A DNA stretch of 32,000 nucleotides from Paramaledivibacter caminithermalis DSM 15212 (GTDB taxonomy: Bacteria > Bacillota > Clostridia > Peptostreptococcales > Caminicellaceae). This document shows positions 1 to 7,243 of this stretch, piece after piece. Both the position numbers and the translations under genes were made by a program. The notes under the pieces are model-generated. The model had not been told where the DNA came from. It did not search any database and worked only from the letters and a program-made list of their open reading frames with translations. The stretch spans positions 104,802 to 136,801 of the forward strand of contig NZ_FRAG01000005.1 in the NCBI RefSeq assembly GCF_900142245.1, written 5' to 3'. How positions within the stretch are numbered: the first letter of the stretch is position 1; each line of letters opens with the position of its first letter.

Positions 1-710
1 CTGTAGATTTTTTGGAGGATATAGGATTAGAGTTTTATAAAATAGCTTCCTTTGAGGTTATAGATATACCTTTAATTAAATACGTGGCATCAAAGGGCAA
101 GCCAATTATTATGTCTACTGGAATGGCTACACTTAAAGAAATAAAAGAGGCAGTAAATGTTATAAAAGGACAAGGAAATAATAATCTATGTTTATTAAAG
201 TGTTCCAGTGCATACCCAGCAATTCCTGACGATATGAATTTAAAAACCATAAATAATCTAAAAGAAATCTTTAATATACCTATTGGACTTTCCGATCATT
301 CCATGGGTTTTATTGGTGCGGTAACAGCAGTAGCTTTAGGTGCTAAGGTTATTGAAAAACATTTTTGTTTGAGTAGAGAAATAAAAACTCCTGATTCTTC
401 TTTTTCAATGGAACCAGATGAATTTAAAGAAATGGTTAAAAATATTAGATTAGCTGAAAGGGCTATAGGAAAGGTTAATTATGATATATCTCCTAATGAA
501 GAGGTAAGTAGGAAACATAGAAAATCTATATTTATTGTAAAAGATATAAAAAAAGGGGAAAAATTTACTGAGGAAAATATTAGAGTCATAAGACCTGCTC
601 AAGGGCTATTGCCTAAGTATTATGATGATATTCTAGGAAAATATGCTTCAATGGATATTGAAAGGGGTACGCCTTTAGATTGGGATATGATTTTAAATAA
701 TAATCAATAA
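1..710 (+). CDS. pseI: Nonulosonic acid synthase, NeuB/PseI family, 5'-truncated by the window edge; probably pseudaminic acid synthase
   Basis: The frame is open back to base 3 (VDFLEDIGLEFYKIASFE). NeuB-type motifs are present (KPIIMSTGMAT, LLKCSSAYP, GLSDHS), as is a C-terminal SAF-like domain (IFIVKDIKKGEKFTEENIRVIRP). pseH- and pseG-like genes lie next to it. Confidence 0.8.
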   Translation, partial: VDFLEDIGLEFYKIASFEVIDIPLIKYVASKGKPIIMSTGMATLKEIKEAVNVIKGQGNNNLCLLKCSSAYPAIPDDMNLKTINNLKEIFNIPIGLSDHSMGFIGAVTAVALGAKVIEKHFCLSREIKTPDSSFSMEPDEFKEMVKNIRLAERAIGKVNYDISPNEEVSRKHRKSIFIVKDIKKGEKFTEENIRVIRPAQGLLPKYYDDILGKYASMDIERGTPLDWDMILNNNQ

Positions 711-772
711 GTTGATCTGCAAAACAGAAAATTTTATTTATTAGTTTGGCAGATTGATTAAAAATTAAAAAG

Positions 773-1375
773 GTGATGCTTATGAATAAAAAAATAACAT
801 TCATTGATATCACGAAAAGTGATAATGATATAAAGCAGCAATTAAGGTATTGGAGAAATCAAGAATTTATAAGAAAAAATATGTTTAATCAGGATATTAT
901 ATCAAAGGAAGACCATGAAAAATTTCTTAGAAAATTAGAGGAAGATGATTCCACTAAGGTATTTTTAACCTTTTATGATAATAGACCATTTGGAGTTTTG
1001 AACTATCATTTAAGAGAAGAAGACAGTTTAGAGTTTGGGTATTATCTGATAGACGAAAAGCATATAAGTAGTGGATTGGGTGCTGTATTGGAATATGTTT
1101 TACTAAATCATGCTTTTTATAATTTAAAAGTCAAAAAAGTATATTGTAGGACATTGACATATAATAAGAAGGTTATTAATTTACACAAAAAGTTTGGTTT
1201 TATTGTCCAAAAGACATTAAAAAATATTATCAAAAGAGATGGCAAGTCTTTAGATGCGTGTATGCAGGTGATTTATCCCGAGATATGGGAGAAGCAAAGG
1301 ACAAAAATTAAAAAGATAATTAAATATATAATTCCTTTAGATGATATTGGTATATTAAAGGTGGAGGGAAAATAA
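773..1375 (+). CDS. pseH: GNAT N-acetyltransferase, PseH-like (UDP-4-amino-4,6-dideoxy-N-acetyl-beta-L-altrosamine N-acetyltransferase family)
   Basis: About 200 aa with PseH-like N-terminal pattern (FIDITKSD..LRYWRNQEFIRKNM..HEKFL) and a GNAT core. Sits between pseI and pseG. Start is ambiguous (GTG 773, ATG 776 or ATG 782); ATG 782 has the best spacing to the AAAAGG at 767-772. Confidence 0.7.
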   Translation: MMLMNKKITFIDITKSDNDIKQQLRYWRNQEFIRKNMFNQDIISKEDHEKFLRKLEEDDSTKVFLTFYDNRPFGVLNYHLREEDSLEFGYYLIDEKHISSGLGAVLEYVLLNHAFYNLKVKKVYCRTLTYNKKVINLHKKFGFIVQKTLKNIIKRDGKSLDACMQVIYPEIWEKQRTKIKKIIKYIIPLDDIGILKVEGK

Positions 1376-1590
1376 TGGATAAGCTACTAGAGATTTTTTC
1401 AGATATTTTAGAAATAGATATACACGAAGATGATTTAGAGCTAACAAAAGAAGAAATTGAAGAATGGGATTCTCTTGCCCAAATTCAAATTATTGCAGAG
1501 ATAGAAGAACAATTTGGAGTAAGTATTCCCTTTGAAGAGATAGAAACAATTAATAAATTAGGAGATTTTTTAAAATATATTGGAAAGTAA
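1375..1590 (+). CDS. Acyl/peptidyl carrier protein (71 aa)
   Basis: Small acidic protein with a phosphopantetheine-attachment-like motif (EEWDSLAQIQII). Its start overlaps the pseH stop (TAATG at 1373-1377). It lies directly upstream of the FkbH-like gene. Confidence 0.75.
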   Translation: MDKLLEIFSDILEIDIHEDDLELTKEEIEEWDSLAQIQIIAEIEEQFGVSIPFEEIETINKLGDFLKYIGK

Positions 1591-1605
1591 ACTGGAGTGA
1601 TAGAT

Positions 1606-3258
1606 ATGAAAATTTCACTGCTTTCAAACATAAATATAGATTTACTTGCAAAAAAACTAAGAAGGGATTATGAAGTTTATAAGCCTGAAGGATATGGGGT
1701 TTGGGTTCAGGAGATGTTAAATAAAAACTCTGGACTAAATAATTATAATCCTGATATAGTTTTTATCCTTCTTGATGGAGATGAGCTTATCAATAAGGAC
1801 TTAGATATTGTATACATTAGAAAAGAGATAGATACTAATATAGGATATATTGAAAACTATATAAAGAATAATATTAAGACCCATGTATTTGTAAATAATT
1901 TAGATTTATCTATTAATAAAGTACAAAGTATAAAGGATATTAGGGTAGAAAGAATAATACAAAGTTATTGGTACGAAAAGCTATGGGATTTAAATAATAA
2001 GTATGGAAATTTTTATATATTTGATATAAAGACATTGATTGAGTCCATTGGTAGAAATGAGTTTTATTCTAAAAAATTATGGTATCTTGGGGGAATAAAG
2101 TTTTCTTCCAAAGGCGATAAGCTTATTAAAAAAGAAATTGATAGGTGTGTAGGGGCTTTTAAAGGGCAGAGAAAGAAGTGTCTAATATTAGATTTAGATA
2201 ATACCCTATGGGGTGGGATAATAGGTGAAGATGGGATGGATAGAATTATCCTATCGGAACATAAAGAGGGAGCCAGATATAAGGATTTTCAAAAGAGGCT
2301 TAAAGAAATAAAGAACACAGGTGTAATTTTAGCGGTAGTATCTAAAAATAATTATGATGATGCTTTAGAAGTATTTAAAAATCATAAGCATATGATTTTA
2401 AATGAAGAAGATTTTGTTTTGATGAAGATAAACTGGAAGTCAAAGGCAGAGAATATTAGAGAAATAGCTGAAGAGTTAAATATTGGACTGGATTCATTGG
2501 TATTTATTGATGATAATCCCGTTGAAAGGGAAAGCATCAAATCACAAATACCAGAGGTAGTTGTTCCAGAGTTTCCCGATGATACGGCTGAACTTGAGAA
2601 ATTTATAATAGATATTTATAATGATTATTTTTTAAGTATTAAAGCTACCGAAGAAGATAAGAAAAAAACGAATATGTATAAGCAGAATTTTAATAGGGAA
2701 AAGGAAATGAAAAGCACAGCTTCCTTTGAAGAATTTTTAAAAAATCTTAATACAAAGATTAAAATTTGGAAGGCAAAGGAAGATGATATTGAGAGAGCAG
2801 CACAATTAACTCAGAAAACAAATCAATTTAATTTGACCACTAAAAGATACTTAGAATCTGACATAGACAGATTTATTAGTTCCGATAAATACGATGTTTA
2901 TATAGCCTCTATAGAAGATAAATTTGGAGATAATGGTAAGGTTTCTTTGATTATAATAGAAAAAAATGATGATAAGACAGTCAAGATAGATACATTTTTA
3001 ATGAGTTGTAGAGTTATGGGAAGATTTATAGAAGAACAGATTATAGATTTTATTGAAGATAAATACAAGAGAAAAGGTTATGAGAAAATAATCTCTTACT
3101 ATTATCCAACAAGAAAAAATAAACCTGTAGAGACCTTATTTGAAGACTTAGGATATATTTTAGTTGACAAAGATAAATATGGGAATAAAAGTTATGAGCT
3201 TTTATTAGATAAAATTAATAATGAAAGAAAAAAATATGGAGAGCTGATGGAATTATGA
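1606..3258 (+). CDS. FkbH-like HAD-superfamily (subfamily IIIC) protein with a C-terminal GNAT-like half
   Basis: HAD motif I LDLDNTLWGGIIGEDG, later VFIDDNP, and a C-terminal TQKTNQFNLTTKRY...FLMSCRVMGR typical of FkbH-domain proteins. The ORF opens at GTG 1597, but ATG 1606 follows the SD GGAGTGAT (1594-1601). Confidence 0.8.
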   Translation: MKISLLSNINIDLLAKKLRRDYEVYKPEGYGVWVQEMLNKNSGLNNYNPDIVFILLDGDELINKDLDIVYIRKEIDTNIGYIENYIKNNIKTHVFVNNLDLSINKVQSIKDIRVERIIQSYWYEKLWDLNNKYGNFYIFDIKTLIESIGRNEFYSKKLWYLGGIKFSSKGDKLIKKEIDRCVGAFKGQRKKCLILDLDNTLWGGIIGEDGMDRIILSEHKEGARYKDFQKRLKEIKNTGVILAVVSKNNYDDALEVFKNHKHMILNEEDFVLMKINWKSKAENIREIAEELNIGLDSLVFIDDNPVERESIKSQIPEVVVPEFPDDTAELEKFIIDIYNDYFLSIKATEEDKKKTNMYKQNFNREKEMKSTASFEEFLKNLNTKIKIWKAKEDDIERAAQLTQKTNQFNLTTKRYLESDIDRFISSDKYDVYIASIEDKFGDNGKVSLIIIEKNDDKTVKIDTFLMSCRVMGRFIEEQIIDFIEDKYKRKGYEKIISYYYPTRKNKPVETLFEDLGYILVDKDKYGNKSYELLLDKINNERKKYGELMEL

Positions 3259-3644
3259 AAATACATCATATAGGTTATGCGGTGAAAGATATTGATTTTT
3301 CTATCAATCAGTTTAAAAAAATAGGATATAAAATGCATAAAGACAAAGTTATAGATGATAATAGAAAAGTAATTATTCAATTTATGAAAAATAATAGCTA
3401 CATGATAGAGTTAATTTCACCATTAGATAAAGATTCACCAATAAACAATATTATAAAAAAAGTAGGTAGTGGGCCTTATCATATTTGTTATGAGACAAAT
3501 GATATTGAGAAAGAAATAGATATTTTATTGAAAGATAAATATATATTGATTGAAAAGCCAAGTAAAGCCATTGCAATAGAAAATAGGATAGTAGCTTTTT
3601 TATTTAATAAGGATATAGGTATCATAGAACTAGTTGAAATTTAG
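3255..3644 (+). CDS. VOC (glyoxalase/bleomycin-resistance/methylmalonyl-CoA-epimerase-like) family protein
   Basis: 129 aa. N-terminal MKIHHIGYAVKDID and a mid-protein GPYHICYE resemble the paired beta-alpha-beta-beta-beta metal-binding modules of VOC/epimerase proteins. ATGA start/stop overlap with the FkbH gene. Confidence 0.6.
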   Translation: MKIHHIGYAVKDIDFSINQFKKIGYKMHKDKVIDDNRKVIIQFMKNNSYMIELISPLDKDSPINNIIKKVGSGPYHICYETNDIEKEIDILLKDKYILIEKPSKAIAIENRIVAFLFNKDIGIIELVEI

Positions 3645-3649
3645 TTTAT

Positions 3650-4768
3650 ATGAGTAAGAGAAAGGAGAAAAGAGAAAGGAGAAAAGCCTTTTCTCTGTTA
3701 TATACGATGTATAATATTTTATTCAGGGTAGATGGTTCATCTAATATAGGCATGGGGCATGTCATGAGAAGTCTTACAATAGCTAAAGAGTTTAGAAAAA
3801 TGAATTGCAACGTAGTATTTATTTCTAAATATAAGGAAGGCGTAGAAAAAATCCTTGAAGAAGATTTTAATGTAATAAAGTTAAGGAATGGTATACATTT
3901 AAAAGGATATGACTATGGAGAAGAAAGTGAACTAAAGGCTGAACTAGAAGAGTTACAGAAAATATTTAACAATTATTCCTATATAGATTTATTTTTGGTG
4001 GATAGCTACAATGTAACAGATAATTATTTTTTAGAAATAAAAAAATATGTTAATAGGCTAGCTTATATAGATGATATCAATAAATTTTGTAAGCATATTG
4101 ACATACTTATCAATGGAAATATTACTGCTAATGACATGGGATATAAGAAATATAGAGAAGATCAATTATTGTTTTTAGGAACAAAATATAATTTGATAAG
4201 AGACGAGTTTAAAAATCTACCTAAGAGAAGTGTAAACGATGATGTAAGAAAAGTTATGATAACAACTGGTGGAGCTGATCCTTATAATATGAGTATAAAG
4301 CTATTAGATATACTGCTAAAAAGTGAAAAATCAAGGAATTTGCAGTATTATGTAGTGTTGGGAAAAGGCTTTAAGAATAAAGAAAAGCTAAAAGATTTTA
4401 GTAAAAAATATGCTAATGTAGTTTTAAAAGAAAATGTTAAATATATGTCTAAAATAATGCTAGAATGTGATGTGGCAATATCAGCAGGTGGTGGAACCTT
4501 ATATGAATTGTGTTCATGTGGAACACCTACTATAGCCTTTATAGTAGCAGAAAATCAAGAAAAATTAGTTGATAAGCTCAGTAGGTTAAAATACATAAAA
4601 TCCATCGGATGGTATGATGAAATTACAAAAAATAAATTAATTTCAGTTTTTAATAAACTTTGCAGAGATAAAGATGCAAGAAAAGATATGTCTTCTAGGG
4701 GGCAATTTCTTGTAGATGGGCTAGGTGGCAGTAGAATCACCAAGGAAATTATAAATTCCTTAACTTAG
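3650..4768 (+). CDS. pseG: PseG-like UDP-2,4-diacetamido-2,4,6-trideoxy-beta-L-altropyranose hydrolase (GT-B fold)
   Basis: FRVDGSSNIGMGHVMRSLTIA is the typical PseG N-terminus, and a GT28-like C-terminal half is present (ITTGGADP, AISAGGGTLYEL). The true start may be ATG 3707 (MYNILFRVDG); the basic 19-aa extension from 3650 is unusual for this family. Confidence 0.75.
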   Translation: MSKRKEKRERRKAFSLLYTMYNILFRVDGSSNIGMGHVMRSLTIAKEFRKMNCNVVFISKYKEGVEKILEEDFNVIKLRNGIHLKGYDYGEESELKAELEELQKIFNNYSYIDLFLVDSYNVTDNYFLEIKKYVNRLAYIDDINKFCKHIDILINGNITANDMGYKKYREDQLLFLGTKYNLIRDEFKNLPKRSVNDDVRKVMITTGGADPYNMSIKLLDILLKSEKSRNLQYYVVLGKGFKNKEKLKDFSKKYANVVLKENVKYMSKIMLECDVAISAGGGTLYELCSCGTPTIAFIVAENQEKLVDKLSRLKYIKSIGWYDEITKNKLISVFNKLCRDKDARKDMSSRGQFLVDGLGGSRITKEIINSLT

Positions 4769-4820
4769 ATGAAATATTGTTTTTTTAGCTATAAATTACG
4801 ATATTTTTTATATACATATT

Positions 4821-4847
4821 TAAACTTTTTATTTGTTCCACCGATAT
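4821..4847 (+). promoter_or_regulatory. Sigma-D (sigma-28/FliA) type promoter for flaG-fliD-fliS
   Basis: TAAA (4821-4824), 15-nt spacer, ACCGATAT (4840-4847). This matches the Bacillus sigma-D consensus TAAA-N15-GCCGATAT. It lies 40 nt upstream of the flaG ATG. Confidence 0.7.
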
Positions 4848-4886
4848 ATATTATAGGAATACATTTAATAGGACGGAGGTATTATT

Positions 4887-5261
4887 ATGAGAATTGAAGG
4901 CATAACAAGTGTTTTTGCTAACCAATCAATAAATAGTATTATAGATATGAATAATGTAGATGCAGTAGACAGTGCCAGACAATTGAGAAGCAGCGAAAAT
5001 AATGGAAGCAGCAGGAGAGAAGAAGATATACCACTGTCAGAAAAAACAATTAAGGAAGCAGTTGATAAAGCCAATAAAAAGTTGGTATTAGCCGATAGAA
5101 AATTTGAACTTAGCATAAATGATGAGACTAATGATATAATAGTAAAGGTAATAAATAAAGAAACCGATGAAGTAGTAAGAGAAATACCATCTGAAAAGAT
5201 ATTGGATATGGTTGCAAAGATGATGGAGCTTGCAGGGCTATTTGTGGATGAAAGAAGATAG
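4887..5261 (+). CDS. flaG: Flagellar protein FlaG
   Basis: 124 aa. The C-terminal LSINDETNDIIVKVINKETDEVVREIPSEKILDMVAKM is the FlaG-family signature. RBS GGACGGAGG. Position upstream of fliD. Confidence 0.85.
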   Translation: MRIEGITSVFANQSINSIIDMNNVDAVDSARQLRSSENNGSSRREEDIPLSEKTIKEAVDKANKKLVLADRKFELSINDETNDIIVKVINKETDEVVREIPSEKILDMVAKMMELAGLFVDERR

Positions 5262-5279
5262 CTTAGGGGGGGATACTAT

Positions 5280-6830
5280 ATGAGTATGAATCTAACTAGA
5301 ATAACAGGTATGTATTCTGGATTTGATACGGATCAATTAGTAAAGGATTTAATAAAAGCTGAAAGTATAAAGGTAGATAAAATAAAGCAAGACAAGATAT
5401 ATACCGAATGGCAGCAGGAAGCCTATAGGGATATTATTAACGAGATTAGGGCATTTAAGGATGAATATTTTAGCTATACAAAACCAGAAACTAACTTTAG
5501 ATCAACATCCTCTTTTGTTGGATATGAAGCAAATATGAAAGACGAAAGTAATAATTATTACCTAGATGTTGGCGTTACTTCAGCTTCTGTTACAGGGAAT
5601 TATACCATAACAGATATAACCTTATCTGAAAGTGCTATTAAACAAGGTAATAATACCTTTCTATTAGGAAACTCTGATCTTGATAAAACATTGGAAGAAC
5701 TAGGATATGTAGATGGAGTTGAGTTTACTATAGAAGCAACAAATGCCGCTGGAGAGACAAAGAGTGATACTATAGCCCTTACGAAGGATAAAAAATTGCG
5801 AGATGTACTATCAGAGGTGAACAGTAGAGATTTAGATGTAGAAATGTATTATGATGAGATAAAAAACAGTGTGATAATTAAAACAGATGATACTGGTAGC
5901 ACTGCTTCACTTTCAAACATAAAGGATACTGGTGGAGCAGGAGACTTAATTGCTGACTTAGGATTGGTTATTGATAAAGGTATCGATGCCCCTATTACAG
6001 GAGTAGATGCCAAAGTAAAAATAACAGATGATAGTGGTGCTTCAAAAGAAGTATCTAGTTCAAATAATTCTGTTACAGTAAATGGAGTAACCTTAGATTT
6101 AAAACAGAATTTAACTGGAGGAAACATAGAATTCAGTGTGTCATCTAATGCTGATGGTATTGTTGATAATATAAAGGGATTTGTTAATAAGTATAATGAA
6201 TTGATAGAAAAAATTAATACGGAATTAACTGAAAAAAAATATCGTGATTTTAAGCCATTAACAGAGGATCAAAAGAAGGAGCTTACTGAAGATGAGGTGA
6301 AGAAATGGGAAGAAAAAGCGAAAAGTGGCTTGCTAAAGAATGACAGCATCCTTGGGAGTATGCTTAGAAATATGAGAAGCATATTATATGATTCAGTAGA
6401 TGGCATGGCTTTATATGACATTGGAATTACTACAAGTTCCGATTATAAGGATAAAGGTAAGCTTATTATTGATGAAGAAAAGCTAAAAAAAGCTATACAG
6501 GATAAGCCTAATCAAGTAGCCAATTTATTTTCTAAGGAGGATGAGGGATTAGCAAATAAGCTGTATGATGTTATTGAAGACAATATATCCACTAGAACCG
6601 ATTCTTATGGTAGAAAAGGTCTGCTTCTAGAGAAGGCTGGAATTGAAGGAGATAGGACGGCTGAGGACAACCTTTTAAGTGATAAAATTAAGGGATACGA
6701 AGATAGGATAACAGAATTATTACAAGATTTAAATGATAAAGAAAACTATTATTATACAATGTTTGCAAAAATGGAAAAAGCGCTAGCGAAAATGAATTCG
6801 CAATCATCCTTCTTTATGGGTCAAATGTAA
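5280..6830 (+). CDS. fliD: Flagellar filament capping protein FliD
   Basis: 516 aa. N-terminal RITGMYSGFDTDQLVKDLIKAE and C-terminal coiled coil (YYYTMFAKMEKALAKMNSQSSF) are typical of FliD. flaG-fliD-fliS synteny. Confidence 0.9.
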   Translation: MSMNLTRITGMYSGFDTDQLVKDLIKAESIKVDKIKQDKIYTEWQQEAYRDIINEIRAFKDEYFSYTKPETNFRSTSSFVGYEANMKDESNNYYLDVGVTSASVTGNYTITDITLSESAIKQGNNTFLLGNSDLDKTLEELGYVDGVEFTIEATNAAGETKSDTIALTKDKKLRDVLSEVNSRDLDVEMYYDEIKNSVIIKTDDTGSTASLSNIKDTGGAGDLIADLGLVIDKGIDAPITGVDAKVKITDDSGASKEVSSSNNSVTVNGVTLDLKQNLTGGNIEFSVSSNADGIVDNIKGFVNKYNELIEKINTELTEKKYRDFKPLTEDQKKELTEDEVKKWEEKAKSGLLKNDSILGSMLRNMRSILYDSVDGMALYDIGITTSSDYKDKGKLIIDEEKLKKAIQDKPNQVANLFSKEDEGLANKLYDVIEDNISTRTDSYGRKGLLLEKAGIEGDRTAEDNLLSDKIKGYEDRITELLQDLNDKENYYYTMFAKMEKALAKMNSQSSFFMGQM

Positions 6831-6862
6831 AAAATGTTGTGCAAATTTTAGGGGGTAAAATA

Positions 6863-7243
6863 ATGGGATTACAAAATCCTTATCAGAAATATAAGCAAAA
6901 TTCTATTATGACAGCAACTCCTCAGGAGTTGGTATTATTACTTTATAATGGAGCTATGAAATTTTTAAAGCAAGCTATATTGCATTTGGAAAACAAGGAT
7001 ATACCAAAAGCCCATAGTGCAATAATAAGGGTTCAGAACATAACCTTGGAATTTATGGCTACAGTAGATAGGAATTATGAAGTCGGTGAAAATTTATACA
7101 ACCTATATGATTATATGTATAATAGGCTAATACAGGCTAATATTTCAAAGGAAGCTAAGATGTTGCAAGAAGTATATGATATGTATAAAGAGCTTAGGGA
7201 TACCTGGGAGGAAGCTATGAAGATAGCTAAGAAAGGAAAATAG
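6863..7243 (+). CDS. fliS: Flagellar export chaperone FliS
   Basis: NPYQKYKQNSIMTATPQELVLLLYNGAMKFL is the FliS N-terminus. ATG 6863 follows RBS AGGGGG (6850-6855); the ORF-track start at 6839 is an upstream GTG. Confidence 0.9.
   Translation: MGLQNPYQKYKQNSIMTATPQELVLLLYNGAMKFLKQAILHLENKDIPKAHSAIIRVQNITLEFMATVDRNYEVGENLYNLYDYMYNRLIQANISKEAKMLQEVYDMYKELRDTWEEAMKIAKKGK

What the first reader, a model, noticed from the sequence alone, without database searches (positions are those of the whole stretch)
773..4768. FkbH / carrier protein / VOC module wedged inside a pseudaminic-acid gene set
pseI, a PseH-like GNAT and a PseG-like hydrolase are the standard late Pse genes. Three translationally coupled genes sit between pseH and pseG (TAATG overlap at 1373-1377, ATGA overlap at 3255-3258). 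They are a 71-aa carrier protein with a DSL serine, an FkbH-type HAD-IIIC protein (LDLDNTLWGG) with a GNAT-like C-terminal half, and a 129-aa VOC/epimerase-like protein. FkbH enzymes are known to load a glycerate-derived C3 unit from 1,3-bisphosphoglycerate onto a dedicated ACP. None of the dehydrogenase or O-methyltransferase partners of methoxymalonyl-ACP pathways are visible here. Inference: the flagellin nonulosonate in this organism is acylated with a glyceroyl-type group delivered as acyl-ACP instead of acetyl-CoA, possibly by the PseH-like GNAT or by the GNAT-like half of the FkbH protein. Glyceroyl-type decorations of flagellin nonulosonates are reported in Campylobacter, but as far as I know an ACP-dependent route has not been characterised.
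Basis: partly seen in the sequence, partly recalled or inferred. Interest (0 to 1): 0.6.

Follow-up and report, generated by a model that had tools for sequence, protein, structure and literature searches.

The report
Carrier-protein acyl branch of pseudaminic acid
In the flagellin-sugar gene island of a Clostridia bacterium, the step that normally acetylates the sugar pseudaminic acid sits next to a small carrier-protein system that probably supplies a three-carbon glycerate unit instead; this would explain 'glyceroyl' forms of the sugar, but none of these enzymes has been tested.

Summary
Observation confirmed. pseI-pseH-ACP-FkbH-VOC-pseG lie overlapping or closely spaced inside a flagellar glycosylation island. 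Flagellin, Maf and PseB/C lie upstream; flaG-fliD-fliS lie downstream.

The 550-aa protein passes the FkbH model. It keeps the HAD motifs and both cysteines shared with polyketide-type FkbH. Its 'GNAT-like half' is the family's own transfer domain.

Added here:
1. This PseH is the only one in the genome and falls in a separate, well-supported clade. Five of its 8 nearest representative clusters are followed directly by a carrier-protein gene, and one more has acyl-activating genes nearby. None of 3 distant PseH controls or 3 canonical clostridial PseH loci has either.
2. The VOC subfamily occurs in 6 of 300 sampled Clostridia genomes and abuts FkbH in all 6. Its closest solved structure is labelled glyoxalase I.

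Best reading (0.55): glyceryl-ACP is made from 1,3-bisphosphoglycerate, adjusted at C2 by the VOC, and transferred by the PseH variant to N4 of the UDP-sugar. That gives Pse5Ac7Gra on flagellin. No step has been tested biochemically.

The scan noted the same idea in at least 40 other genomes, and Campylobacter cj1302 is a published FkbH-domain gene. Verdict: a new variant of known kinds, moderately interesting.

The parts
3..710 (+). pseI, 3' part. The gene starts 352 bases upstream of the window, at G000:C118:104450.
   Evidence: The full-length protein (L093:320-1381) scores 492.8 bits on TIGR03586 PseI, cut-off 340.25. The window part scores 322.8 bits.
782..1375 (+). PseH-type GNAT of the carrier-protein-associated clade (open from GTG 773; ATG 782 follows a GGTGA). 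Predicted acyl-ACP : UDP-4-amino-4,6-dideoxy-beta-L-AltNAc N-acyltransferase.
   Evidence: TIGR03585 102.6 bits against cut-off 93.1. It is the only PseH over the cut-off in the genome. It is 44-48% identical to PseH genes that abut ACP-FkbH but about 25% identical to canonical clostridial PseH. It has ISSGLG in place of F/Y-R-G-x-G-L-G, and a C-terminal extension of about 20 aa with an invariant I-G. Clade support is 99/94.
1375..1590 (+). Dedicated 71-aa acyl carrier protein. The phosphopantetheine serine S33 is encoded at 1471-1473.
   Evidence: PF00550 E 3e-10. W-D-S is invariant in 7 orthologues. The start overlaps the pseH stop (TAATG).
1606..3258 (+). FkbH-like loader, 550 aa. It has an N-terminal domain (residues 1-190), a HAD-IIIC phosphatase core (DLDNT at 196-200, codons 2191-2205) and a C-terminal GNAT-fold transfer domain with invariant Cys468 (codon 3007-3009).
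   Evidence: TIGR01686 331.2 bits against cut-off 146.65. Invariant motifs are listed. The AF2 model has pLDDT 85.9. Foldseek matches 3slr for the N-terminal and HAD parts and GNAT acetyltransferases for the C-terminal ~170 residues.
3255..3644 (+). 129-aa metal-dependent VOC enzyme that partners FkbH. Predicted to act at C2 of the 2-hydroxyacyl-S-ACP, most likely as an epimerase.
   Evidence: PF13669 E 3e-19. Ligand positions H5, E52, H76 and E125 are invariant in 14 relatives. It is 52% identical to PDB 3hdp/2qh0. The subfamily was found in 6 of 300 Clostridia genomes and abuts FkbH in all 6. ATGA overlap with the FkbH gene.
3650..4768 (+). pseG (UDP-sugar hydrolase). The TIGR03590 match begins at residue 22, so the true start may lie later.
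   Evidence: TIGR03590 231.8 bits against cut-off 153.55.
4887..7243 (+). flaG, fliD and fliS: the downstream border of the flagellar glycosylation island (context).
   Evidence: Pfam FlaG, FliD_N/FliD_C and FliS.

Best explanation
The three inserted genes, together with the PseH variant, form an acyl-carrier branch of the pseudaminic acid pathway.

Inferred from family:
- The FkbH-like enzyme takes 1,3-bisphosphoglycerate.
- It forms a phosphoglyceryl thioester on a conserved cysteine.
- Its HAD domain removes the 3-phosphate.
- Its GNAT-fold domain passes the glyceryl group to the phosphopantetheine arm of the 71-aa ACP.

Inferred, weakest step:
- The VOC enzyme binds this 2-hydroxyacyl thioester through its metal. 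It acts at C2, most likely by epimerising D- to L-glyceryl-ACP.

Inferred from comparative genomics:
- The PseH variant is the only PseH in the genome. It uses glyceryl-ACP instead of acetyl-CoA to acylate N4 of UDP-4-amino-4,6-dideoxy-beta-L-AltNAc.

PseG, PseI and the cytidylyltransferase then give CMP-Pse5Ac7Gra. N4 of the hexose becomes N7 of the nonulosonate. The Maf-type transferase puts the sugar on the 253-aa flagellin.

Shown here: gene identities, motifs, synteny, clade structure and co-occurrence. Not shown: any enzymatic step or the glycan mass.
For: 1. FkbH membership: 331 bits against a cut-off of 146.65. The DxDxT, S-x-N, K and DD motifs, the TNQxN motif and both cysteines (C192; C468 in LMSCRVMGR) are shared with two polyketide-context FkbH. 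One is in a Streptomyces canus 3-hydroxyacyl-CoA dehydrogenase / ACP / acyl-CoA dehydrogenase / FkbH cassette, L092. The other is in a B. thuringiensis NRPS/PKS cluster, L091. The OzmB mechanism is described in PMC9057759.

2. ACP pairing: an ACP gene lies beside FkbH in 71 of 80 loci from very diverse bacteria and archaea.

3. The same order, pseI-pseH-ACP-FkbH-VOC-pseG, occurs in a Thermotogaceae MAG (L003), an Acetivibrio MAG (L004) and two other Clostridia genomes (G063, G232). It also occurs in a metagenomic contig that carries Maf (L121).

4. There is a single PseH in G000, and also in G063 and G232. This enzyme must therefore carry out the N4-acylation.

5. PseH subtype. Linked PseH are 44-48% identical to ours while their PseI are 54-72% identical. 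Unlinked PseH are 25-27% identical, or give no BLAST hit, while their PseI are 58-69% identical.

6. Independent sample chosen by PseH similarity only. Among the 8 representative clusters with E<1e-30:
- 5 are followed directly by a carrier-protein gene: P0361, P0362, P0364, P0366 and P0368.
- 1 sits by AMP-ligase/LuxE/LuxC genes.
- 3 of 3 more distant PseH have no carrier gene.
- The two groups split with 99/94 support.

7. VOC: it abuts FkbH in 6 of 6 Clostridia genomes that have the subfamily. Metal ligands are invariant. In the 80 loci it co-occurs with N-acyltransferases (LbH 10, PseH 3) and never with MaoC-SDR fusions.

8. Flagellin context: flagellin, Maf (PseD-like) and PseB lie upstream on the same strand.

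9. Glyceroyl-type N-acyl Pse exists. T. forsythia makes Pse5Am7Gra with the glyceroyl at N7 (PMC5378307). C. jejuni makes a di-O-methylglyceroyl Pse with oxonium m/z 391 against 317 (PMC3068675). By my arithmetic, 391 = 317 - 42 + 116, which means an acetyl group is replaced. C. jejuni cj1302 is an FkbH-domain gene in that locus (PMC7099621).

10. Complex prediction of PseH with ACP gave weak support only: score 0.33, best control 0.01.
- The mark was reached by 58 of 80 solved complexes and 2 of 110 mismatched pairs.
- At scores of 0.60 or under it was reached by only 7 of those 80, and by both mismatches that passed.
- The runs agree in at least 88% of contacts, and the partner's pLDDT is at least 82.
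- My own alignments were used.
Against: No step is shown biochemically, and no glycan mass is known for this organism.

The PseH still passes the equivalog model built on acetyl-CoA enzymes and keeps the G-x-G loop, so a change of donor is inferred rather than seen.

The carrier-associated clade was assembled by similarity to the query. Several of its contigs end just after the ACP gene, so the loader there is unknown. Two members (P0363, P0367) show no carrier gene in the DNA available.

The VOC's closest solved relative is labelled glyoxalase I, and no epimerase activity on acyl-ACP is documented.

An SDR, an aldo-keto reductase, an FkbM-type methyltransferase and radical-SAM enzymes upstream could change the acyl group or the sugar further.

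Sporomusa (L005) has ACP-FkbH-VOC with a canonical PseH plus an AAC(3)-like enzyme. The module therefore does not always work through a PseH variant.

The complex prediction is only weak.
Confidence: 0.55

Rival explanations
1. The loader and the PseH variant are the same, but the group delivered is not glyceroyl. The VOC removes the C2 proton and the 3-hydroxyl leaves, giving pyruvoyl-ACP. A reductase, such as the FabG-like SDR six genes upstream, then makes lactyl-ACP. Flagellin would carry Pse5Ac7Lac or a related C3 acyl group.
For: FkbH loci elsewhere often carry MaoC-dehydratase/SDR fusions (5 of 80 loci) or separate SDRs (21 of 80). VOC and MaoC-SDR never occur together in the 80 loci, as expected of alternative processing enzymes. 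Earlier notes of this scan read MaoC-SDR cassettes as lactyl-ACP makers. A FabG-like SDR lies in the same island. VOC chemistry proceeds through a metal-bound enolate or enediolate, which could also drive beta-elimination (established knowledge of the superfamily).
Against: The SDR is not adjacent to the module. A similar SDR, and an aldo-keto reductase, occur in pse clusters that have no FkbH (G288 and G125). No SDR is seen in the 14-kb Acetivibrio locus that has the same pseI-to-pseG order. Most VOC-containing loci have no SDR nearby (15 of 20). No VOC dehydratase acting on acyl thioesters is known to me.
Confidence: 0.17
2. The PseH is an ordinary acetyl-CoA enzyme, and the acyl-ACP is used elsewhere. 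It might O-acylate pseudaminic acid, or acylate another sugar of a larger flagellin glycan encoded by the same island.
For: The PseH passes the PseH equivalog model. The island also encodes several glycosyltransferases, GDP-mannose dehydratase, a fucose-synthase-like enzyme and UDP-galactopyranose mutase, so the glycan may hold more than one sugar. FkbH-ACP modules serve other transferases elsewhere: LbH in 20-21 loci, MBOAT in 17 and KAS III-like in 9 of 80.
Against: No other candidate acyltransferase (LbH, MBOAT, AAC(3)-like or KAS III-like) was found in the 60 kb examined. pseH and the ACP gene are translationally coupled. The PseH clade, sampled independently of FkbH, is followed by carrier-protein genes in 5 of 8 cases, with different loaders.
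Confidence: 0.15
3. The VOC is a true glyoxalase I and the FkbH-like protein is only a phosphatase. The three genes would then be passengers unrelated to the glycan.
For: The closest solved structures (3hdp, 2qh0; 52% identity) are named glyoxalase I and lactoylglutathione lyase. A Ni-activated glyoxalase I from C. acetobutylicum with the same Pfam domain, PF13669, has been reported (PMC3826101).
Against: The VOC subfamily is rare (6 of 300 Clostridia genomes) and always abuts FkbH, so it is not a housekeeping enzyme. It scores 28 bits on the glyoxalase I model against a cut-off of 120. FkbH keeps both cysteines and the GNAT-fold transfer domain, and has its own ACP in 71 of 80 loci. Start and stop codons overlap within the pse operon.
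Confidence: 0.03

Closest known systems
FkbH / OzmB-type glyceryl-ACP loaders with their ACP (methoxymalonyl-ACP, hydroxymalonyl-ACP and tetronate pathways of polyketide synthesis)
   Same: The FkbH domain is well over the model cut-off. The HAD motifs, the TNQxN motif, the LMSCRVM(G/S)R cysteine motif and the GNAT-fold C-terminal domain are shared, and a dedicated small ACP lies next door. The expected chemistry is 1,3-bisphosphoglycerate to glyceryl-S-enzyme to glyceryl-ACP (PMC9057759).
   Different: There is an extra N-terminal domain of about 190 aa (as in PDB 3slr) and two insertions in the HAD part. There is no FkbK, FkbI or FkbG partner and no PKS or NRPS. The neighbours are sugar-pathway genes, and the acyl group is predicted to end on an amino sugar rather than in a polyketide.
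Canonical PseH (C. jejuni, PDB 4xpk/4xpl): acetyl-CoA-dependent N4-acetyltransferase of the pseudaminic acid pathway
   Same: It passes TIGR03585, has a GNAT fold, sits in the same place in a pse operon and is the only copy in the genome.
   Different: It belongs to a separate clade (99/94 support), about 25% identical to canonical clostridial PseH. The basic F/Y-R-G-K/R stretch before the G-L-G loop is replaced by I-S-S. It has a C-terminal extension of about 20 aa. A carrier-protein gene follows it directly.
C. jejuni NCTC 11168 flagellar glycosylation genes around cj1295-cj1304 (di-O-methylglyceroyl pseudaminic acid)
   Same: This is a flagellin Pse locus that holds an FkbH-domain gene (cj1302) and a gene annotated as an epimerase (cj1301) (PMC7099621). 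The product carries a glycerate-derived acyl group, and its mass fits replacement of an acetyl group (PMC3068675, my arithmetic).
   Different: I could not fetch the Campylobacter DNA, so the comparison rests on papers, earlier scan notes and my memory of the annotation (acpP2, acpP3, fabH2, a methyltransferase). That locus needs Cj1295. From memory it belongs with the AAC(3)-like/DUF4910 type I saw in Sporomusa L005 and in L122. The window has none of those genes.
Tannerella forsythia Pse5Am7Gra (N7-glyceroyl pseudaminic acid on S-layer glycan)
   Same: The predicted product has the same modification at the same nitrogen, the one set by the PseH step.
   Different: [quoted passage not shown] I could not test whether T. 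forsythia has an FkbH-ACP-VOC set. Several Bacteroidales MAGs do (L038, L050, L059).
Aeromonas group II polar-flagellin glycosylation islands
   Same: pseH is followed by an ACP gene and acyl-activating genes: 3-oxoacyl-ACP reductase, AMP-dependent synthetase, luxE and luxC (PMC7874193). Relatives of this window's PseH show the same arrangement (L124, L127).
   Different: The loader is an adenylating enzyme, not FkbH. The authors read those genes as fatty-acid channelling.
C. acetobutylicum Ni/Co glyoxalase I (PDB entries named Glyoxalase-I, 3hdp, and lactoylglutathione lyase, 2qh0) and methylmalonyl-CoA epimerase
   Same: 52% identity to 3hdp/2qh0. The best Pfam domain is the same, PF13669. 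The His/Glu/His/Glu ligand set is kept. Both known enzymes act next to a thioester carbonyl through a metal-bound enolate or enediolate.
   Different: It scores below the cut-offs of both the glyoxalase I and the epimerase models. It is strictly linked to FkbH. The link between the two PDB entries and the published C. acetobutylicum enzyme is from my memory, because the paper (PMC3207458) is not held.

Membership tests
FkbH family (TIGR01686; glyceryl-ACP loaders) | FkbH-domain profile over the curated cut-off | tested here: met
   331.2 bits against cut-off 146.65, residues 193-520. It is the only copy in the genome.
FkbH family (TIGR01686; glyceryl-ACP loaders) | HAD phosphatase motifs (DxDxT, S/T, K, DD) | tested here: met
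   D196, D198, T200, S246, N248, K280, D302 and D303 are invariant in 14 relatives and shared with two polyketide-context FkbH.
FkbH family (TIGR01686; glyceryl-ACP loaders) | Cysteine that carries the (phospho)glyceryl thioester, in a C-terminal transfer domain | tested here: inconclusive
   Cys192 and Cys468 are both invariant and shared with polyketide-type FkbH. The C-terminal ~170 residues have a GNAT fold. I could not confirm from a paper which cysteine is catalytic.
FkbH family (TIGR01686; glyceryl-ACP loaders) | Dedicated ACP encoded next door | tested here: met
   The ACP gene ends 15 nt upstream. An ACP is adjacent in 71 of 80 loci.
FkbH family (TIGR01686; glyceryl-ACP loaders) | Loads glycerate from 1,3-bisphosphoglycerate | not testable with these tools
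   Needs an enzyme assay with intact-mass read-out of the ACP.
Methoxymalonyl-ACP pathway (FkbG-K) | 3-hydroxyacyl-CoA-dehydrogenase-type (FkbK), acyl-CoA-dehydrogenase-type (FkbI) and O-methyltransferase (FkbG) partners | tested here: not met
   None was found among the ORFs of about 60 kb around the module. Compare the complete cassette in L092.
PseH (TIGR03585) | Profile over the cut-off and a place in a pse operon | tested here: met
   102.6 bits against cut-off 93.1, between pseI and pseG. It is the sole copy over the cut-off in the genome.
PseH (TIGR03585) | Acetyl-CoA as the acyl donor | not testable with these tools
   Indirect signs point to a different donor: a separate clade, an altered loop before G-L-G, a C-terminal extension, and carrier-protein genes directly downstream in 5 of 8 nearest clusters.
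Pseudaminic acid pathway (PseB, C, H, G, I, F) | All six steps encoded | tested here: met
   - PseC: 521 bits (cut-off 423.5).
- PseG: 231.8 bits (cut-off 153.55).
- PseI: 492.8 bits (cut-off 340.25).
- PseH: 102.6 bits (cut-off 93.1).
- PseB-like: best hit 336.5 bits, below the cut-off of 407.75.
- Cytidylyltransferase: KdsB/SpsF-like, with only a weak match to PseF.
 PseB and PseF are therefore assigned by best hit and context only.
Methylmalonyl-CoA epimerase (TIGR03081) | Profile over the cut-off | tested here: not met
   69.2 bits against cut-off 114.95. It is a VOC relative, not a member.
Glyoxalase I (TIGR00068 / NF050074) | Profile over the cut-off | tested here: not met
   28.1 bits against cut-off 120, and 16.2 against 165. 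It is nevertheless 52% identical to PDB chains named glyoxalase I.
VOC metalloenzymes | Four metal ligands on paired beta-alpha-beta-beta-beta modules | tested here: met
   H5, E52, H76 and E125 are invariant in 14 relatives.

The most novel reading that the evidence does not exclude
The PseH variant defines a family of sugar N-acyltransferases that take their acyl group from a carrier protein rather than from CoA. They work with interchangeable loaders: FkbH for glycerate, or adenylating enzymes for other acids. The FkbH-coupled VOC is a previously unrecognised 2-hydroxyacyl-ACP epimerase or isomerase. The only 'Gram-positive glyoxalase I' with a solved structure would then be a member of this family, assayed on a surrogate substrate.
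Probability: 0.3. Interest if true: 0.65.

Novelty: new variant of a known kind. Interest (0 to 1): 0.5.

Why it matters
Nonulosonic acids on flagella and S-layers shape motility, autoagglutination, phage binding and immune recognition. Their N-acyl groups are what vary between strains.

The genetic basis of the N-glyceroyl group was still called elusive for Tannerella forsythia in 2018. The Campylobacter genes around cj1302 have no assigned chemistry.

A four-gene set with a clear, cheap in vitro test would give that basis. The test is ACP mass shifts of +88 Da, then transfer to a UDP-amino sugar. It would also allow glycan prediction from genomes. The PseH clade marker, together with the type of loader, predicts which acyl group is made. 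It would assign a role to a widespread VOC subfamily as well.

This window adds one more clean example rather than a first sighting.

Tried and rejected
- A search for shorter relatives of the FkbH domain, meant to reach canonical ~360-aa FkbH, returned only fragments under 301 aa and was of no use. Canonical FkbH came from a tblastn of plasmids instead.
- I tried to see whether the C. acetobutylicum 'glyoxalase I' gene sits by an FkbH gene:
  - The FkbH locus of that species that I could fetch (L083) has an ACP but no VOC within 10 kb.
  - Its genome is not held for searching.
  - The 3hdp sequence was not among the 120 VOC hits listed.
  - The original paper is not held.
  - The question stays open.
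- I could not reach Campylobacter or Tannerella genomes with the scans left. The two organisms with known glyceroyl-type Pse were therefore compared through papers only.
- Methoxymalonyl- or hydroxymalonyl-ACP was considered and rejected because there are no FkbK- or FkbI-type genes.
- The GNAT-like half of FkbH as the sugar N-acyltransferase was considered and judged unlikely, because it is conserved in polyketide FkbH, which have no sugar substrate.
- The upstream SDR and aldo-keto reductase as parts of the module were judged unlikely. Similar genes sit in pse clusters without FkbH, and none is seen in the Acetivibrio locus.
- Promoter-like sites in 1-5400 are no more frequent than in shuffles, so nothing is claimed about promoters.

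Full report
**What is there.**
The window opens inside pseI and runs on the + strand through six genes.
- A PseH-type GNAT: 782-1375, 102.6 bits on TIGR03585 (cut-off 93.1).
- A 71-aa ACP: 1375-1590.
- A 550-aa FkbH-like protein: 1606-3258, 331 bits on TIGR01686 (cut-off 146.65).
- A 129-aa VOC protein: 3255-3644.
- PseG: 3650-4768, 231.8 bits.
- The full PseI scores 492.8 bits.

TAATG joins pseH and the ACP gene, with GGTGGAGGG just upstream. There are 15 nt with a GGAG before the FkbH ATG. ATGA joins FkbH and VOC. There are 5 nt before pseG. No terminator-like site lies in 1-5400.

**Surroundings.**
The window is G000:C118:104802-136801. Upstream on the same strand lie, in order:
- flgK, flgL, fliW, a 253-aa flagellin and a 623-aa Maf/PseD-like transferase
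- a GDP-mannose pyrophosphorylase and a PseB-like dehydratase (336.5 bits, best hit, below the cut-off)
- two B12-radical-SAM enzymes, GDP-mannose dehydratase, a fucose-synthase-like enzyme and an FkbM-type methyltransferase
- three glycosyltransferases and UDP-galactopyranose mutase
- a FabG-like SDR, a cytidylyltransferase and an aldo-keto reductase
- PseC (521 bits) and an RmlB/LegB-like dehydratase

Downstream come flaG, fliD, fliS and flgN. The module therefore sits in a flagellar glycosylation island of about 35 kb with a complete pse set, and flagellin is the evident target. None of the upstream redox or methyl enzymes is of the FkbK, FkbI or FkbG type.

**The loader.**
Fourteen relatives share the DLDNT motif, S246/N248, K280, D302/D303, a TNQFN motif and LMSCRVMGR with Cys468. 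I fetched two FkbH genes in polyketide context. One lies in a Streptomyces canus cassette of 3-hydroxyacyl-CoA dehydrogenase, ACP, acyl-CoA dehydrogenase and FkbH. The other lies in a B. thuringiensis NRPS/PKS cluster. They share all these motifs and both cysteines, C192 and C468, with the window's protein.

An AlphaFold model (pLDDT 85.9) matches PDB 3slr over the N-terminal and HAD parts. That entry is the N-terminal part of B. fragilis BF1531, of unassigned function. The C-terminal ~170 residues match GNAT acetyltransferases. Its simplest role is the transfer from enzyme cysteine to ACP described for OzmB (PMC9057759). What sets the glycan-type proteins apart is the extra ~190-aa N-terminal domain and two insertions.

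**Distribution.**
The 550-aa form is very common.
- In 80 loci from bacteria and archaea an ACP gene is adjacent in 71.
- The other recurrent neighbours are SDRs (some fused to MaoC dehydratase), hexapeptide N-acyltransferases, VOC proteins, MBOAT acyltransferases, KAS III-like enzymes, sugar aminotransferases and glycosyltransferases.
- FkbH plus ACP thus looks like a general acyl-donor module for glycan tailoring that is plugged into different transferases.
- In a sample of 300 Clostridia genomes, FkbH domains occur in 35 and PseH over the cut-off in 6. Three of those six PseH genes abut ACP-FkbH.

**The transferase.**
G000, G063 and G232 each have a single PseH, so it must perform the N4-acylation that PseG and PseI depend on.
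- PseH genes that abut ACP-FkbH are 44-48% identical to the window's, while their PseI are 54-72% identical.
- PseH genes of FkbH-free clostridial pse clusters are 25-27% identical, or give no BLAST hit, although their PseI are just as similar at 58-69%.
- The linked group has I/V-S/N-S/G in place of the basic F/Y-R-G-K/R stretch before the G-L-G loop. It also has a C-terminal extension of about 20 residues with an invariant I-G.

For a test that does not use FkbH to pick the sample, I searched 1.84 billion representative proteins with the PseH alone. Only 8 clusters score below 1e-30. Their contigs show the following:
- A carrier-protein gene lies directly downstream in five: P0361, P0362 (followed by FkbH and VOC, with Maf on the contig), P0364 (a partial ORF ending in the W-D-S-L motif), P0366, and P0368 (an unannotated 103-aa protein with a DSL motif, then an SDR and an AMP-ligase).
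- AMP-ligase, LuxE and LuxC lie next to the sixth.
- AAC(3)-like plus DUF4910 lie next to the seventh.
- No carrier gene lies near the eighth.
- Three more distant PseH have none.

A maximum-likelihood tree splits the carrier-associated group from canonical PseH with 99/94 support. The clade was gathered by similarity, so the informative result is the neighbour label, not the clade. Published Aeromonas islands likewise place an ACP and acyl-activating genes right after pseH (PMC7874193).

A complex prediction for PseH with the ACP gave weak support only: score 0.33 against 0.01 for the best control. The mark was reached by 58 of 80 solved complexes and 2 of 110 mismatched pairs. At scores of 0.60 or under it was reached by only 7 of those 80, and by both mismatches that passed. 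The runs agree in at least 88% of contacts, and the partner's pLDDT is at least 82.

**The VOC.**
- It keeps the four ligand positions H5, E52, H76 and E125.
- It scores below the cut-offs of both the methylmalonyl-CoA epimerase and the glyoxalase I models.
- It is 52% identical to PDB 3hdp/2qh0, named glyoxalase I and lactoylglutathione lyase.
- I recall these as the C. acetobutylicum enzyme. A paper notes that this enzyme (AAK80149) has PF13669 and only 22% identity to E. coli glyoxalase I (PMC3826101).
- The subfamily is rare: 6 of 300 Clostridia genomes have it, and it abuts FkbH in all six.
- In the 80 loci it goes with N-acyltransferases and KAS III-like genes, almost never with MBOAT, and never with MaoC-SDR fusions.

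Glyoxalase I makes a 2-hydroxyacyl thioester, and the epimerase inverts the carbon next to a thioester. Both act through a metal-bound enolate or enediolate. Glyceryl-S-ACP is a 2-hydroxyacyl thioester. I therefore propose that the VOC acts at its C2. Epimerisation is the most likely reaction and beta-elimination towards pyruvoyl or lactyl is the alternative. This is the least supported step.

**Two architectures.**
Sporomusa (L005) has a canonical PseH. After ACP-FkbH-VOC it carries an AAC(3)-like N-acyltransferase, a DUF4910/DUF2172 protein and a methyltransferase. L122 shows part of the same set. From papers and earlier scan notes this resembles the Campylobacter cj1295-cj1304 region. The window belongs to the simpler type, in which a PseH variant itself appears to take the carrier-borne acyl group.

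**Comparison with what is known.**
- N-glyceroyl Pse is established chemically. T. forsythia makes Pse5Am7Gra with the group on N7, the nitrogen set by the PseH step (PMC5378307). Its gene is still 'elusive' (PMC6120980).
- C. jejuni 11168 makes di-O-methylglyceroyl Pse. The oxonium ions are m/z 391 against 317 (PMC3068675), which by my arithmetic fits replacement of one acetyl group.
- cj1302 is a recognised FkbH-domain gene in that locus (PMC7099621).
- Searches for FkbH together with pseudaminic acid, flagellin glycosylation or polysaccharide found no characterisation of the route. The library lacks most subscription journals.
- This scan has already noted the same idea in at least 40 other genomes, including an Acetivibrio island with the same gene set. 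I treated those notes as leads only.

**Verdict.**
The module is best described as an acyl-carrier branch of the pseudaminic acid pathway.

It combines two known kinds, FkbH/ACP glyceryl loading and PseH N-acylation, in a way that has not been tested biochemically. The points added here are the carrier-associated PseH clade and the strict FkbH-VOC linkage.

Interest is moderate. A specialist would find the module plausible rather than startling. It does make the origin of glyceroyl-type nonulosonates directly testable.

Noticed in passing
window 3255-3644; PDB 3hdp/2qh0: The only solved close relatives of the FkbH-coupled VOC are deposited as glyoxalase I / lactoylglutathione lyase (52% identity). 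If they belong to this FkbH-linked subfamily, their physiological substrate may be an acyl-ACP rather than a glutathione hemithioacetal.
   Followed up: partly
L124:294-5591 and L127:5001-7954: Close relatives of this PseH sit beside other acyl-activating sets, either AMP-ligase/LuxE/LuxC or carrier protein/SDR/AMP-ligase. This suggests that one transferase clade is served by interchangeable loaders. The 103-aa protein of L127 (5587-5898) has a DSL motif but no Pfam hit.
   Followed up: partly
L039, L041, L049, L052, L053, L056, L063, L065, L067, L068, L072, L073, L075, L077 and others: In 17 of 80 loci, FkbH-ACP lies next to an MBOAT membrane acyltransferase. This is a Dlt-like arrangement that would esterify an extracellular polymer. 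It almost never includes the VOC (1 locus).
   Followed up: no
L005:9753-15301: Sporomusa aerivorans has pseCFGHI with a canonical PseH, followed by ACP, FkbH, VOC, an AAC(3)-like N-acyltransferase, DUF4910/DUF2172 and a methyltransferase. This is a second architecture that resembles the Campylobacter locus.
   Followed up: partly
L001:1-15081 (G000:C118:84802-99882): The island also encodes two B12-binding radical-SAM enzymes, an FkbM-type methyltransferase (557 aa), GDP-mannose 4,6-dehydratase, a fucose-synthase-like enzyme, three glycosyltransferases and UDP-galactopyranose mutase. The flagellin glycan may therefore be a methylated heteroglycan and not Pse alone.
   Followed up: no
L001:104-1810 and L001:13452-13943: Two ORFs inside the glycosylation island (568 aa and 163 aa) have no Pfam or NCBIfam match.
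   Followed up: no
L001:18662-19618: An RmlB/LegB-like 4,6-dehydratase sits between pseC and pseI, although a PseB-like gene lies 21 kb upstream. Its orthologue is 76% identical in the Acetivibrio locus and 62% in Clostridium moutaii. It is missing or much less similar (25%) in the FkbH-free pse clusters examined.
   Followed up: no
window 3650-3715: The pseG ORF begins with about 20 mostly basic residues (MSKRKEKRERRK...) ahead of the PseG profile match. The annotated start may be too early.
   Followed up: no
L003:914-1395 and L089:1480-1824: In the Thermotogaceae MAG the PseH reads in two overlapping frames, which may be a frameshift or an assembly error. In genome G294 the VOC match contains two TAA stops.
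   Followed up: no
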